Source of the DNA: a virus
IMG/VR virus record: IMGVR_UViG_3300046779_001735
Span: 1-64,000 of that record
Length of the DNA: 64,000 nucleotides
Reading direction: 5' to 3' (one strand)
The translations under genes and the position numbers were made by a program. A model generated the notes under the pieces. It did no database searches. It had not been told where the DNA came from and worked only from the letters and a program-made list of their open reading frames with translations. This document shows positions 3,707 to 6,639 of this stretch, piece by piece (position 1 is the stretch's first letter; every line of letters begins with the position of its first letter).

Positions 3707-4843
3707 ATGTTTTTGACCTTGCGACACAGACCGGATCTTAGATTGGTGCCAAGTTCGGTGGGCGCGATATCTGAATTTTTTCCAGACACCAAACTGTTGA
3801 TTTTGACTCTGCAGGACCTTAATGGAGTGAGTCGCATCACTTGGTTTGATCTGTACAATCGCATCATTAAGTGTGTACACGAGCACAAGATAGAGTTAAT
3901 TGTGATAGATCGCACTGGCGAGCCCAAGATCTTGGACGAACCTGAACACTATGGACCCAATGACATCACCATAGCAGATTCACTTAGATCTGTGTGCGCC
4001 ACGGTAATTGTAACCGATGACTATACCTATTACAATCAGTGTCATGAGCACGTGGTCTGCTTTCCCTATAATATTTGGCTACTAGCATCACGCAGTGTGG
4101 ACCGGTACGAAAACTTTCACGGGAATGGGTACGACACAGGTCTGCCAAAAATTCGTTCCTTAATGTGTTTGAATAGAAAGTTGCATTGGCACAGGATTTT
4201 TCTATACCTGGAACTTCGCAAACGTGACTGGTTACATCGAGTGGATTTCAGTTTTATACTTGGCAATGATCGAATGGACACAGATTTCCTTCTGCGCGAT
4301 CTAACTCACCAAGAAATTGACCAAATGCATCTAGCCAGCAATGAACTGCCAATTGTGTTGTCCGAAGAACAGGTTAGTGACACCGGCAACTTTACATCCA
4401 ACGGCAGTACACAGCATTGGACTAGTGTGAATCTTCCGGTTTACAATCGCACAGCCATGAATCTAGTTACTGAAACCAGTTTGAATCACGGAATTTTGCT
4501 CACAGAAAAAGCAGTGAAGCCTATCATGGCCTATCAAATTCCTGTGATACTAGCAGCACCCGGAGCCAATGCATGGCTACAGAGTCTTGGTTTTGACCTA
4601 TTTGCAGACTTTGTGCCCTGGGCACATTGGGACAGCGCAAAAGATCAACGACAAAAAATTCTCAGTATGGTGAACTGGCTAGACACTGTGATGCAGGATC
4701 CAGAACAAATAGTTTCATATCACAGACAGAGTCATCACAGACTACGGGCAAACAAGCAACTATTTCACAGCGCAGAGTTTGTCAGACAACTTGAACAGCC
4801 TATTAGAGCCTATGCTCAGTCCATTTCGTCCACTTCTACATAG
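3707..4843 (+). CDS. Hypothetical protein, possibly glycosyltransferase-like
   Basis: CLNRK..WHR, NLVTET..LTEKAVKP and LGFDLF motifs resemble GT-B/GT10-like phage proteins. Ends in TAG. Confidence 0.55.
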   Translation: MFLTLRHRPDLRLVPSSVGAISEFFPDTKLLILTLQDLNGVSRITWFDLYNRIIKCVHEHKIELIVIDRTGEPKILDEPEHYGPNDITIADSLRSVCATVIVTDDYTYYNQCHEHVVCFPYNIWLLASRSVDRYENFHGNGYDTGLPKIRSLMCLNRKLHWHRIFLYLELRKRDWLHRVDFSFILGNDRMDTDFLLRDLTHQEIDQMHLASNELPIVLSEEQVSDTGNFTSNGSTQHWTSVNLPVYNRTAMNLVTETSLNHGILLTEKAVKPIMAYQIPVILAAPGANAWLQSLGFDLFADFVPWAHWDSAKDQRQKILSMVNWLDTVMQDPEQIVSYHRQSHHRLRANKQLFHSAEFVRQLEQPIRAYAQSISSTST

Positions 4844-5382
4844 TCATCCTCGTCAATATAGGTACCCGGGGCATCATAAGACTTGTAGTAGGCTTCGTTT
4901 GGTTTCATAATCCTAAAAGCATTTTCGTATTTCAAAGCAGCAAAGGTTGCTTCATCTTTTTTAAGCAGATCGCACACTACAAAGCTGGTGCCACAGTCGC
5001 CTCTTACGTTTTTAAAAGGTGAATGTTTGAACTCGTTTTTGCAAAGAGCGTCATGAAACTTGCTTCCATAATTGAAAATTATCCTGGTAATACCCAGCTT
5101 TTGATTACGCAGTCTAATCTTGTCCACAACAGATAAGTTTGAGATTTCAGCTTCGTTCACATCGTTGATGGTCAACAAACATTCTCGGAACTTGATGCTG
5201 CCTTTGGTATGGGAGTTGTCTGGAGTTTCTTTGGTACTCCATGGGATACTAGCAGTGACGTGGTCTACGTAAAAAGTTTCACCGTGTGTTTTTACGACCC
5301 ACATTGGGATGGTTTCGTCTTCTAGGTGTTTCTTGTTAAAATGAAACACTAGGTCTTTACATGCGTATTCAATCTATGACAT
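4816..5382 (-). CDS. Hypothetical protein with an in-frame TAG at codon 3 (MS*IEYACKDLVFHFNKK..., 188 codons); candidate amber read-through gene
   Basis: Minus strand reads AAGGA-AAATAAA-ATG TCA TAG ATT GAA TAC GCA TGT AAA GAC CTA GTG, in frame with the 177-aa ORF 4816-5349. Confidence 0.75.
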
Positions 5383-5383
5383 T

Positions 5384-5560
5384 TTATTTTCCTTTAAATT
5401 TACTACATATCAGTTCAAAATCTCTTTGACGCCCTTGAACTTGTCCGTAACTTGCAGTTGGATAACGTTCTCTATACTCTGTTTTTTGTTGTTCTAAACA
5501 GTCTTCATATGGGCGCGAACACCCTGCTACTAGAGTCAAACACATTAAGACGTACCGCAT
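5384..5560 (-). CDS. Small predicted lipoprotein, 58 aa (MRYVLMCLTLVAGCSRPYEDCLEQQKTEYRERYPTASYGQVQGRQRDFELICSKFKGK)
   Basis: AGGA before the ATG; basic residue, hydrophobic stretch and lipobox VAG-C. Stop is 1 nt before the next ATG. Too short for the ORF track. Confidence 0.7.
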   Translation of the reverse strand: MRYVLMCLTLVAGCSRPYEDCLEQQKTEYRERYPTASYGQVQGRQRDFELICSKFKGK

Positions 5561-5575
5561 TGCAGTTTCCTAAAG

Positions 5576-5672
5576 TGACGGTTTTTTTGTGTCAGGAAAC
5601 CGTCAAACCCCGTGAGCGCAGCCCATCCCGTTTTCGCGTCAGCGGAGCCGGAATATGGATACGGGTCCGGCT
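5576..5672 (-). ncRNA. Structured RNA: three helices plus two potential loop-loop pseudoknots, directly 3' of the tRNA
   Basis: P1 AGCCGGA/TCCGGCT; P2 CCG(C)TGACGC/GCG(C)TCACGG; P3 TGACGGTTT/AAACCGTCA. The P2 loop segment CGGGATGGG is complementary to the P3 loop (TCCTG) and the P1 loop (TCCAT). Confidence 0.65.
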
Positions 5673-5678
5673 TAAAAC

Positions 5679-5751
5679 TGGTGCACTAGATGGGAATCGA
5701 ACCCACTACTTAGAGTTTTAGAGGCTCCGGGCCGACCGTCGGCACTAGTGC
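5679..5751 (-). tRNA. Amber suppressor tRNA (anticodon CUA), 73 nt, encoded CCA, short D-arm
   Basis: GCACTAG-T-GCCG ACGGT CGGC-CC-GGAGC CTCTAAA ACTCT-AAGTA-GTGGG TTCGATT CCCAT-CTAGTGC-A-CCA. 7-bp acceptor stem, canonical T-loop, anticodon loop CU-CUA-AA. Confidence 0.88.
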
Positions 5752-5758
5752 ATACGTA

Positions 5759-5787
5759 ATTATGCCAGAAATCTAAACACAGTTCAA
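5759..5787 (-). promoter_or_regulatory. Sigma70-like promoter for the tRNA operon
   Basis: Minus strand TTGAAC-17 nt-CATAAT, ending 7 nt before tRNA G1. Confidence 0.6.
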
Positions 5788-5815
5788 ATAATTTGGAAAA
5801 CCACTAAATACTATT

Positions 5816-5866
5816 AACGCATCCTGCGTTTTATGCGGATACCACCGCGTAGTGGCTGAAACCCAC
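5816..5866 (+). promoter_or_regulatory. Structured 5' leader with three tandem hairpins after a late promoter
   Basis: AACGCA/TGCGTT, TATGCGG/CCGCGTA and GTGG/CCAC lie between TAAATA (5805) and the AAGGAG Shine-Dalgarno. Confidence 0.5.
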
Positions 5867-5892
5867 ATCGGACTTCTTTAAGGAGAAAACAA

Positions 5893-6639
5893 ATGGGACG
5901 TCCTCTCAAAATTCAAAAATATTCAACAAATTCTGGTGTTGGTTCACCAGGTGCAGCAGTAGGCATTGACATTGGTTTTCCTAACTTTGGATCGTTAACT
6001 GATCCAGTATACAACACTAATCCTGAAACTCTAAGTGCAGCAGATTACCTTGGCGTTGTGGGTGGTCTTCGCACCACAGCAACATCAGCTACGAATCCCG
6101 TGATCAAGTGTATCGTAAACATTGCAAACAGTTACACAGGGGTAGACGATGGTGTAATTCTGCGTCAAAAAGGGTCACACAAATTTCTAGTGGCTACAAA
6201 CACAGCTATTGATCCTGCCAATGCATTGACCGGTGTGAGTGTGCGTATTGCTACTCTAGGCGACACAAACTGGAATGCCATGGGCGCACCAGTGGGTGCA
6301 GCAGTGGGAACTATCTTTTTGGTAACAGCAGCCGCAGGTGCCGGAACCACAGGTACTTGTCAGGAAGTTGGAGTTTGTGTGCTAGATAATGATGCAACCC
6401 CAGCCGCTGGTCTTATGGCCATTGGATTCTCAGTAGGCGATTCAACTATCACTTACATCAGCAAATTAACCAACAAGTGGTTACTTGACTGGACTGGTGG
6501 CAACGGATACACACAATCTGACATTACCGGTGATGTTCGTTACGTGTCCAACTTCTTCACTGATGAAGGAACTGTTATCAAGTCTGGTACTGCTGATACT
6601 ACAGTTATCCCAGGTCAACTTGAAAAATGGACTAGTTAA
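5893..6639 (+). CDS. Hypothetical late (probably virion) protein
   Basis: Late promoter and strong Shine-Dalgarno; G/A/T-rich; MGRPLK start and RQKGSHKFLV motif. Confidence 0.7.
   Translation: MGRPLKIQKYSTNSGVGSPGAAVGIDIGFPNFGSLTDPVYNTNPETLSAADYLGVVGGLRTTATSATNPVIKCIVNIANSYTGVDDGVILRQKGSHKFLVATNTAIDPANALTGVSVRIATLGDTNWNAMGAPVGAAVGTIFLVTAAAGAGTTGTCQEVGVCVLDNDATPAAGLMAIGFSVGDSTITYISKLTNKWLLDWTGGNGYTQSDITGDVRYVSNFFTDEGTVIKSGTADTTVIPGQLEKWTS

What the first reader, a model, noticed from the sequence alone, without database searches (positions are those of the whole stretch)
5576..5672. Predicted double-pseudoknot RNA between the suppressor tRNA and the protein genes
A GC-rich 97-nt element starts 6 nt after the tRNA CCA and forms three helices. 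The central loop carries CGGGA-TGGG. It can pair with TCCTG in the P3 loop and with TCCAT in the P1 loop; alternatively ACGGG can pair with CCCGT in the P1 loop, giving mutually exclusive folds. It ends about 15 nt before the lipoprotein ATG. From memory it resembles tRNA-adjacent phage motifs such as manA, but this was not tested. Inference: a riboswitch-like switch, ribozyme/processing element or stand-alone ncRNA, adding a second control layer to the amber operon.
Basis: partly seen in the sequence, partly recalled or inferred. Interest (0 to 1): 0.72.

Follow-up and report, generated by a model that had tools for sequence, protein, structure and literature searches.

The report
New pseudoknotted phage RNA near tRNAs
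The flagged stretch is a real, strongly conserved, knotted small RNA gene that many uncultivated lake phages carry among their tRNA genes or right behind a Ro60-like RNA-binding protein gene. It matches no catalogued RNA family, and it is a portable RNA module, not a switch built for the neighbouring amber-stop operon.

Summary
Window 5672-5576 (minus strand) is a real structured RNA. It has three helices (A, B, C) and one loop-loop pseudoknot. All are backed by compensatory base changes across 74 distinct relatives from well over 100 IMG/VR phage contigs. The pairings CGGGA:UCCUG and AUGG:CCAU do not, so there is no evidence for a switch.

There is no match in Rfam 15, in 50,697 cultured phages, or in 185,579 prokaryote species genomes.

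The element is not tied to the amber operon:
- Half of the variants lie within 30 nt of a tRNA, always on the tRNA strand.
- Some have their own promoter and terminator.
- Near-complete genomes carry it without the amber gene, and the reverse.

It recurs 3-12 nt behind the stop codon of a DUF2828/DUF7788 gene whose predicted fold matches Ro60. It also lies near canonical TROVE genes.

Best reading: a stand-alone small RNA acting in trans. It is released here from the tRNA(CUA) transcript and may be a Y-RNA-like partner of Ro60-type proteins. That partnership is inferred from gene linkage only. A ribozyme or a cis-regulator is less likely.

This scan noted the same family before on other DNA (e1-5687949, e1-5687961) without follow-up.

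The parts
5759..5787 (-). Sigma70-type promoter TTGAAC-17-CATAAT (TG-extended -10). It ends 7 nt before the tRNA 5' end and drives tRNA, RNA element and both ORFs.
   Evidence: 9 of 12 matches; no terminator-like site between the tRNA and the ORFs. The -10 region is conserved in relatives.
5679..5751 (-). tRNA with anticodon CUA and encoded CCA (5681-5679).
   Evidence: Rfam tRNA, 32.5 bits. ARAGORN misses it.
5673..5678 (-). AU-rich spacer GUUUUA between CCA and the RNA element. This is the likely endonucleolytic processing site (inferred).
   Evidence: In relatives the spacer is 3-10 nt and AU-rich.
5576..5672 (-). The structured RNA element (97 nt; the covariance-model hit spans 5574-5673).
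   Evidence: R1 hit of 120.5 bits. Single copy in the 156.6 kb held of this genome.
5666..5671 (-). Helix A, 5' strand GCCGGA. Pairs with 5647-5652.
   Evidence: 5 of 6 pairs have compensatory changes.
5647..5652 (-). Helix A, 3' strand UCCGGC.
5661..5665 (-). Pseudoknot PK1, 5' strand CCCGU (in loop A, directly continuing helix A). Pairs with 5627-5631.
   Evidence: All four core pairs covary.
5627..5631 (-). Pseudoknot PK1, 3' strand ACGGG (in loop B).
5653..5660 (-). Rest of loop A (AUCCAUAU). This is a variable site, replaced by an extra hairpin in many relatives.
5635..5645 (-). Helix B, 5' strand CCGCUGACGCG (C at 5642 bulged). It ends in the invariant CGAAA (5636-5632).
   Evidence: Pairs 35-56 (C-G/A-U) and 36-55 (four pair types) covary. 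G-U substitutions fit this strand only. Fully compensated variants.
5610..5620 (-). Helix B, 3' strand UGCGCUCACGG (C at 5616 bulged).
5619..5626 (-). Near-invariant loop-B segment AUGGGCUG. Its role is unknown; a tertiary or protein contact is inferred.
   Evidence: Invariant in 72 of 74 distinct sequences.
5605..5609 (-). Linker GGUUU. G63-G65 (5610-5608) may pair with CCU of loop C (5596-5594), giving a candidate second pseudoknot, PK2.
   Evidence: 100% pairable (G-U 63, G-C 10, A-U 1), but variation is on one side only. Two G63A variants keep U79 and break C28-G63. This is a hypothesis.
5577..5604 (-). Helix C (GACGGUUU/AAACCGUC) with the conserved loop CCUGACACAAAA.
   Evidence: 7 of 7 pairs are compensatory. 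Loop consensus is CCYGACACAA.
5384..5560 (-). 58-aa lipoprotein ORF downstream. It is a neighbour in this sub-clade only and not part of the family.
4816..5382 (-). ORF with an in-frame TAG at codon 3 (the client of the tRNA). It is a neighbour in this sub-clade only.

Best explanation
The element is a gene for a compact small RNA of about 100 nt.

Structure. Helix A stacks on a 5-bp pseudoknot formed with the loop of helix B. A third hairpin, C, carries a conserved loop. The core is almost invariant: CGAAA, AUGGGCUG, CUCACGGGGUU and CCYGACACA.

Expression in this window (inferred). It is transcribed from the TTGAAC/CATAAT promoter together with tRNA(CUA). It would be cut free in the AU-rich spacer by the host nucleases that mature tRNA operons. 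In other phages it is made from its own promoter and ends at its own terminator (shown by sequence context).

Function (inferred). It most likely acts in trans as the RNA part of a ribonucleoprotein. The best candidate partner is a Ro60-type (TROVE plus vWA) protein, phage-encoded where present and otherwise possibly from the host. That would make it work like a Y RNA, gating or tethering Ro60 to RNA decay or repair enzymes during infection.

Status of each step. Shown: the structure, the family, its contexts, and the gene linkage to Ro60-like genes. Inferred: the processing, the action in trans, and the binding to Ro60.
For: Structure:
- Covariation supports A, PK1, B and C.
- G-U pairs fix the strand.

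Stand-alone gene:
- A T4-late-type TATAAATA lies 8-11 nt before the 5' end in L208, L163, L178 and L230.
- At least 15 variants have an intrinsic terminator right after the 3' end.
- The element sits in tRNA-array slots with tRNA-like spacing. 615 tRNAs in these loci are on the same strand and none on the opposite strand.
- It occurs in unrelated genome types of about 100, 190 and 340-370 kb.

Ro60 link:
- A 466-aa DUF2828+DUF7788 neighbour (L271) was modelled. All 13 top PDB hits are Ro60/TROVE, including Thermus phage phiLo Ro60 (9kop, 9l5y), human Ro60 and Deinococcus Rsr (E 8e-8 to 3e-3).
- Among the 80 best loci of that protein in IMG/VR, 16 carry the RNA. In 14 of them it starts 3-12 nt after the stop codon on the same strand.
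- All 8 records holding both have them within 8.5 kb on the same strand.
- Canonical TROVE (PF05731) was found in only 2 of 42 records. In both it lies 0.4-0.7 kb from the RNA, and a third such phage is L272.
- Of 10 records at least 90% complete, 4 have the RNA plus an adjacent Ro60-type gene, 3 have the RNA only, none has Ro60 only, and 3 have neither.
- The invariant CGAAA overlaps the CGAA core of the Ro60-contact motif GNCGAAN0-1G of bacterial Y RNAs (PMC4201824) and of the phiLo Yrl RNAs (PMC12135203).
- RNA-end-healing-type genes (AAA_33 kinase, calcineurin-type phosphoesterase) recur beside it.
Against: - Most carriers have no Ro60-type gene nearby: only 11 of 74 variants have one within 3 kb.
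- Three near-complete genomes lack one entirely. The 156 kb held of this window's own genome also lacks one, though that record is only 45% complete.
- Next to the canonical TROVE genes there is already a tRNA-like YrlA-type candidate (L302 1171-1276, 35 bits, below threshold). The element would then be at best a second Y-like RNA.
- It lacks the terminal 5'/3' stem and the tRNA-like domain of YrlA. It matches only four letters of the Ro60 motif.
- Ro60-like genes sit in the same tRNA/RNA-gene hub, so some proximity could be shared neighbourhood.
- No expression or end-mapping data could be obtained.
Confidence: 0.5

Rival explanations
1. A trans-acting phage RNA that works without Ro60. It could be a decoy, sponge or inhibitor for a host factor such as an exoribonuclease (for example PNPase), a tRNA-targeting defence nuclease, or the ribosome. 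The Ro60-like gene would then be only an occasional neighbour in the RNA-gene hub.
For: The majority of carriers, including three near-complete genomes, lack any Ro60-type gene. The RNA has spread across unrelated phage types, as expected for a self-sufficient module aimed at a host component. Helix B is invariant in sequence even at paired positions, which suggests base-specific recognition by a conserved partner. The phiLo Yrl RNAs bind host PNPase on their own (PMC12135203).
Against: This reading does not explain why the RNA sits 3-12 nt behind the stop codon of Ro60-like genes in many diverged phages, and also next to the rare canonical TROVE genes. No candidate host target was identified.
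Confidence: 0.25
2. A self-cleaving ribozyme or dedicated processing signal that severs tRNAs from flanking RNA, comparable in role to the HDV-like theta ribozymes found 3' of phage suppressor tRNAs.
For: 26 of 74 variants start 3-10 nt after a tRNA 3' end, eight of them after a CUA suppressor tRNA. The core is compact, pseudoknotted and near-invariant, as in ribozymes. [quoted passage not shown] Theta ribozymes occupy the same context (PMC10879173).
Against: Many copies have no upstream tRNA, begin at their own promoter and end at a terminator, so there is nothing to process. The topology is not HDV-like: the 3' strand of the pseudoknot lies inside loop B, there is no P1.1, and no J4/2 cytosine follows a P4. 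No ribozyme family in Rfam matches at E <= 10. The tRNAs here encode CCA and are followed by variable spacers, whereas only 4.5% of theta-associated tRNAs encode CCA and 77% of theta ribozymes sit within 1 nt of the tRNA end (PMC10879173).
Confidence: 0.1
3. One reading: a cis-acting riboswitch-like leader that controls translation of the downstream lipoprotein and amber-gated gene, for instance through the UUUCCU of hairpin C pairing with the AGGAAA Shine-Dalgarno sequence.
For: In about 12 of the 39 variants found by the loop-B pattern, the RNA lies directly upstream of the amber gene or of the lipoprotein plus amber gene. UUUCCU in hairpin C is complementary to the AGGAAA ribosome-binding sites there. 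In the window the tRNA trailer CAGUUU is complementary to AAACUG at the RBS, and L027 has AUAACA/UGUUAU instead.
Against: Most copies have no downstream ORF in range: a tRNA or a terminator follows. The element and the amber gene occur independently in complete genomes. No alternative pairing covaries. Downstream genes are heterogeneous.
Confidence: 0.08

Closest known systems
Bacterial and phage Y RNAs: YrlA/YrlB (Rfam RF02553; Chen et al. 2014, PMC4201824) and Yrl1/Yrl2 of Thermus phage phiLo (PMC12135203)
   Same: Small non-coding RNA encoded on the same strand next to a Ro60-family gene. It lies among or beside tRNA-like genes and carries an invariant CGAA-containing segment on the 5' strand of a bulged helix. 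RNA-repair-type genes are in the neighbourhood.
   Different: No terminal stem formed by the 5' and 3' ends. No tRNA-like T/D-arm module. Only CGAA of GNCGAAN0-1G is present. There is no Rfam hit. The architecture is three hairpins plus a pseudoknot. Most copies occur without any phage Ro60 gene.
Bacteriophage T4 stable RNAs, species 1 and 2 (rnaC 139 nt, rnaD 119 nt; NC_000866 70908-71171)
   Same: Small stable RNAs of unknown function in the slots of a phage tRNA gene array, on the same strand, with tRNA-like spacing of 1-6 nt.
   Different: No sequence or structure similarity: the best covariance-model score on the T4 region is 5 bits, E about 0.7.
HDV-like theta ribozymes of gut phages (Kienbeck et al. 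2024, PMC10879173)
   Same: A pseudoknotted element directly 3' of phage tRNAs, often suppressor tRNAs. Helix A enclosing the 5' strand of a pseudoknot resembles the P1/P2 nesting.
   Different: Roughly twice the size. The 3' strand of the pseudoknot lies inside another hairpin loop. There is no P1.1, P3/L3 or catalytic-C arrangement. The tRNAs carry CCA and a spacer. Many copies have no tRNA upstream. The habitat is freshwater, not gut.
   Same: A phage-associated structured RNA often found near tRNAs.
   Different: No match in cmscan, even at E <= 10 on a 116-nt query.

Membership tests
Y RNA / YrlA-YrlB (Ro60-associated RNAs) | Encoded within about 4 kb of a Ro60 (TROVE) gene on the same strand | tested here: inconclusive
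   Met in a subset. 14 of the 80 best DUF2828-type Ro60-like loci have the RNA 3-12 nt after the stop codon. Three canonical TROVE loci have it 0.4-0.7 kb away. But only 11 of 74 variants have such a gene within 3 kb, and 3 near-complete carrier genomes have none. The 156 kb held of this window's genome has none either.
Y RNA / YrlA-YrlB (Ro60-associated RNAs) | Ro60-contact motif GNCGAAN0-1G (GGUCCGA in animals) near the 5' end | tested here: inconclusive
   Only the CGAA core is present, as the invariant (C/A)NCGAAA at the top of the helix B 5' strand. The flanking G residues are absent (motif from PMC4201824).
Y RNA / YrlA-YrlB (Ro60-associated RNAs) | Stem formed by the 5' and 3' ends, plus (for YrlA) a tRNA-like T/D-arm domain | tested here: not met
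   The covariation-supported fold has three consecutive hairpins and no closing stem. There is no T-arm or D-arm sequence. The YrlA model does not hit the element, yet it does hit a separate RNA beside the TROVE gene.
Y RNA / YrlA-YrlB (Ro60-associated RNAs) | Physically bound by Ro60 | not testable with these tools
   Needs EMSA or co-immunoprecipitation. The complex predictor takes no RNA.
HDV-like / theta ribozymes | Nested double pseudoknot P1-P1.1-P2-P3-P4 with a catalytic C at the start of J4/2 | tested here: not met
   Helix A/PK1 nest like P1/P2. But the 3' strand of the pseudoknot lies inside loop B, the P3 position is a variable loop or an optional hairpin, no GG for P1.1 follows helix A, and helix B (covarying) is incompatible with a P4-J4/2 reading. 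No HDV-type Rfam hit.
HDV-like / theta ribozymes | Cleavage site within about 1-5 nt of a tRNA 3' end that usually lacks encoded CCA | tested here: not met
   The tRNAs encode CCA and are followed by 3-10 nt spacers. 48 of 74 variants have no tRNA within 30 nt upstream.
HDV-like / theta ribozymes | Self-scission | not testable with these tools
   Needs an in-vitro cleavage assay.
T4 species 1/2 RNAs (rnaC, rnaD) | Sequence or structure homology to rnaC or rnaD | tested here: not met
   cmsearch with filters off on NC_000866 69800-72300 gave a best hit of 5.2 bits, E 0.66, and that hit is not on rnaC or rnaD.
Riboswitch / cis-regulatory leader | Consistent position in the 5' UTR of functionally related genes, with an expression platform that alternates with the aptamer | tested here: not met
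   The downstream feature is a tRNA, a terminator or unrelated ORFs in most variants. The proposed alternative pairing does not covary.
Any Rfam 15 family (including manA, twister, pistol, hatchet, hammerhead) | Covariance-model match | tested here: not met
   No hit on the RNA strand at E <= 10 in the window. No hit on the element at E <= 1 in four variant loci.

The most novel reading that the evidence does not exclude
This is a previously unrecognised class of Ro60-associated (Y-like) RNA. It is a three-hairpin RNA with one or two pseudoknots and no tRNA-like module. Large freshwater phages would encode it, with or without their own Ro60-type protein (including the unstudied DUF2828/DUF7788 form of Ro60), to redirect host RNA decay or repair during infection.
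Probability: 0.35. Interest if true: 0.8.

Novelty: new variant of a known kind. Interest (0 to 1): 0.66.

Why it matters
Phage tRNA arrays are usually read as codon supplements or as insurance against defences that cut tRNAs. This RNA shows that the same arrays carry conserved, intricately folded RNAs of unknown function.

It comes with a concrete, testable partner. DUF2828/DUF7788 is very abundant in jumbo-phage contigs: 7,941 of the 8,000 candidates scored matched at E <= 1e-5. Its predicted fold matches Ro60.

If the RNA binds that protein, three things would follow. Y-RNA biology would gain a new structural class. A large domain of unknown function would be assigned to RNA quality control. 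And there would be a tractable system for asking why lytic phages bring their own Ro60 ribonucleoprotein.

For the amber-gated operon in this window, the result removes a presumed regulatory layer.

Tried and rejected
- Rfam 15 at gathering and at E <= 10, on the window, on a 116-nt slice and on four variant loci. Nothing on the RNA strand.
- blastn against 50,697 cultured phages: no match.
- Pattern scan of 185,579 prokaryote species genomes: none.
- HDV/theta topology, hammerhead core, short-peptide ORF (AUG GGC UGC ... with a non-conserved stop) and kink-turn or box C/D readings were checked by inspection of the alignment and dropped.
- T4 rnaC/rnaD homology is rejected.
- Divergent copies near amber-gene homologues that lack the element: none found.
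- Obligatory co-occurrence with the calcineurin-type phosphoesterase, the AAA_33 kinase or the amber gene was rejected at genome level.
- The supplementary tables of the 10,006-candidate viral RNA catalogue (PMC10690425) are not held. I could not check whether this motif is one of its anonymous entries.
- PDB sequence search with the Ro60-like protein: no hit. Only the fold search was informative.

Full report
WHAT IS THERE

The window is the first 64 kb of a 156.6-kb IMG/VR phage record estimated at 45% complete. On the minus strand, the order is:
- a sigma70-type promoter, TTGAAC-17-CATAAT, at 5787-5759;
- a tRNA with anticodon CUA and encoded CCA, at 5751-5679 (Rfam 32.5 bits; ARAGORN misses it);
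- a 6-nt spacer;
- the flagged 97 nt, at 5672-5576;
- 15 nt containing AGGAAA;
- a 58-aa lipoprotein ORF;
- an ORF with TAG as codon 3.

IS IT MORE THAN CHANCE?

Folding energy alone says no: z = -1.13. Comparison says yes.

Protein-anchored searches and two DNA-pattern scans of IMG/VR retrieved well over 100 contigs that carry the element. A covariance model (R1) aligned 98 copies, 74 of them distinct. On that alignment:
- 98% of cells pair, against 36-46% when partners are slid;
- 19 of 30 pairs show changes on both sides;
- no shuffle out of 500 reaches the observed score.

The helices are supported as follows.
- Helix A covaries at 5 of 6 pairs, and helix C at 7 of 7.
- The pairing between the 5' part of loop A and loop B (PK1) covaries at all four core pairs, with at least eight different complementary sequence pairs.
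- Helix B is almost invariant in the common form. Even so, pairs 35-56 and 36-55 covary. Distant copies behind Ro60-like genes replace UGA(C)NC/GN(C)UCA by GAUACAC/GUGUAUC or GGA/UCC. This sets the register, with C31 and C57 bulged.
- G-U pairs occur throughout, including an invariant one closing helix B. They fit only the strand shared with the tRNAs.

CGGGA with UCCUG of loop C never compensates and breaks whenever PK1 changes. CCAU of loop A is simply absent in variants that carry an extra hairpin there.

A different second pseudoknot, G63-G65 with CCY of loop C, is 100% pairable and fits two G63A variants. It rests on one-sided variation only, so I treat it as a hypothesis.

WHAT IT IS NOT

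- No Rfam 15 family matches at E <= 10. That includes manA, the HDV-type, twister, pistol, hatchet and hammerhead ribozymes, and YrlA.
- No cultured phage and none of 185,579 prokaryote species genomes carries it.
- The T4 species 1/2 RNAs share the context but not the model.
- It does not belong to the amber operon. Among records at least 90% complete, six carry the RNA without the amber gene, three carry the amber gene without the RNA, and one has both, 77 kb apart.

CONTEXT

- Of 74 distinct variants, 26 have a tRNA within 30 nt upstream and 17 within 30 nt downstream. 37 have one on at least one side.
- These loci hold 615 tRNAs on the element's strand and none on the other.
- Upstream tRNAs are mostly Gly, or CUA-anticodon suppressors that ARAGORN labels Pyl. 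Downstream tRNAs include Met, Ser and Arg.
- Other copies follow an ORF stop codon.
- Several copies are preceded at -8 to -11 by the T4-late-type TATAAATA, or by a sigma70 -10 box.
- At least 15 are followed within 10-20 nt by an intrinsic terminator.

A unit of promoter, RNA and terminator has nothing to regulate in cis and nothing to process. The common function of the family must therefore lie in the RNA itself. The genome holds one copy.

THE RO60 LEAD

I clustered ORFs within 3 kb of the 74 variants. This gave four recurrent neighbours:
- a calcineurin-type phosphoesterase (20 loci);
- an AAA_33 P-loop kinase (15 loci);
- an RpoZ-like protein (14 loci);
- a protein of about 470 aa with DUF2828 and DUF7788 (8 loci).

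For the last one, I modelled the 466-aa L271 protein. The AlphaFold model (pLDDT 71.7) matches Ro60/TROVE structures over its full length. The matches include phiLo phage Ro60, human and Xenopus Ro60, and Deinococcus Rsr (E 8e-8 to 3e-3, probability 1.0, TM about 0.4-0.56).

Linkage was then tested from several sides.
- From the protein's side, 16 of the 80 best IMG/VR loci of this protein carry the RNA. In 14 of them it begins 3-12 nt after the stop codon, with quite diverged RNA variants of 44-60 bits. Most of the others have a terminator there.
- In all eight records that hold both, they lie within 8.5 kb on the same strand.
- Canonical TROVE (PF05731) occurs in only 2 of 42 records examined. 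In both it lies 0.4-0.7 kb downstream of the RNA, and a third such phage is L272.
- Among near-complete genomes, four have the RNA with an adjacent Ro60-type gene, three have the RNA alone, none has a Ro60-type gene alone, and three have neither.

The invariant CGAAA at the top of the helix B 5' strand overlaps the CGAA core of the Ro60-contact motif of bacterial Y RNAs (PMC4201824). The same core was used to find the phiLo Yrl RNAs (PMC12135203). Iyer et al. noted TROVE proteins in a small subset of jumbo phages, together with a tRNA-like partner (PMC7824862).

LIMITS OF THAT LEAD

- Most carriers, including the 156 kb held of this genome, show no Ro60-type gene.
- Beside the canonical TROVE genes there is already a YrlA-like candidate (weaker ones near the DUF2828-type genes).
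- The RNA has neither the terminal stem nor the tRNA-like module of YrlA.
- The phosphoesterase, the kinase and the amber gene do not track the RNA at genome level.
- I could not obtain expression data.

VERDICT

This is a real family of pseudoknotted small RNAs of uncultivated phages, uncatalogued as far as I could check. The habitat is probably freshwater, given the freshwater-2 motif next door.

It is most likely a stand-alone RNA acting in trans. The link to Ro60-type proteins is specific but unproven.

In this window it rides on the suppressor-tRNA transcript. The local complementarities to the lipoprotein ribosome-binding site may add a side effect in this sub-clade. They are not what the family is conserved for.

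The same family was noted twice before by first readers of this scan on another genome (e1-5687949, e1-5687961) without follow-up.

Noticed in passing
window 5815-5895 (+): A full-length freshwater-2 RNA motif (RF02980, 69.9 bits; gathering threshold 49.9) ends at the ATG of ORF 5893-6639. That ORF encodes a 248-aa protein with more than 440 relatives in IMG/VR.
   Followed up: partly
window 4816-5382 (-) and loci L097-L161: The 'M-x-TAG-I-E-Y/F-A-C-K-D' start, with an in-frame TAG at or near codon 3, is conserved in about 30 diverged homologues. It often has a CUA tRNA directly upstream, with or without the RNA element. This is the subject of other findings of this scan.
   Followed up: partly
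window 5672-5677 with 5563-5568 (-): The tRNA trailer CAGUUU is complementary to AAACUG between the Shine-Dalgarno sequence and the ATG of the lipoprotein gene. L027 has AUAACA/UGUUAU at the same places. This may be a covarying long-range helix that encloses the element in this sub-clade.
   Followed up: no
L271:1572-2969, L268:5729-7135 and about 570 IMG/VR loci: DUF2828+DUF7788 proteins of jumbo-phage contigs have a predicted Ro60 (TROVE + vWA) fold. 7,941 of the 8,000 candidates scored in the protein database matched at E <= 1e-5.
   Followed up: partly
L302 1171-1276 (+); L271 675-786 (+); L268 12285-12381 (-): Sub-threshold YrlA (RF02553) matches of 34-40 bits, on the same strand as and upstream of Ro60-type genes. 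The L302 match has clear T- and D-arm sequences 30 nt before the TROVE ORF.
   Followed up: no
L302 626-770 (+) and the same place in L284, L285, L292, L245, L255, L286, L238, L272: A conserved stretch of about 140 nt without an ORF lies between the element and tRNA-Met (…CUGUUUACUUAAGGCUACAGACUAUGCCCC…AAACAGCGUCAAUGUC…). It may be another small RNA.
   Followed up: no
L275:4244-4477 and 13 other loci: Phage-encoded 78-aa homologues of the RNA polymerase omega subunit (PF01192, E 6e-13) lie close to the element.
   Followed up: no
L168 96-466; L196 1-294; L304 3719-4075: Phage-encoded tmRNAs (permuted and beta-type models, 86-120 bits) lie in the same RNA-gene regions.
   Followed up: no
L271 3169-4198; L235; L248; L233; L268: A conserved gene pair, AAA_33 P-loop kinase followed by a calcineurin-type phosphoesterase, lies directly downstream of the element. 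It resembles the healing half of Pnkp-type RNA repair. It is present in many genomes irrespective of the RNA.
   Followed up: partly
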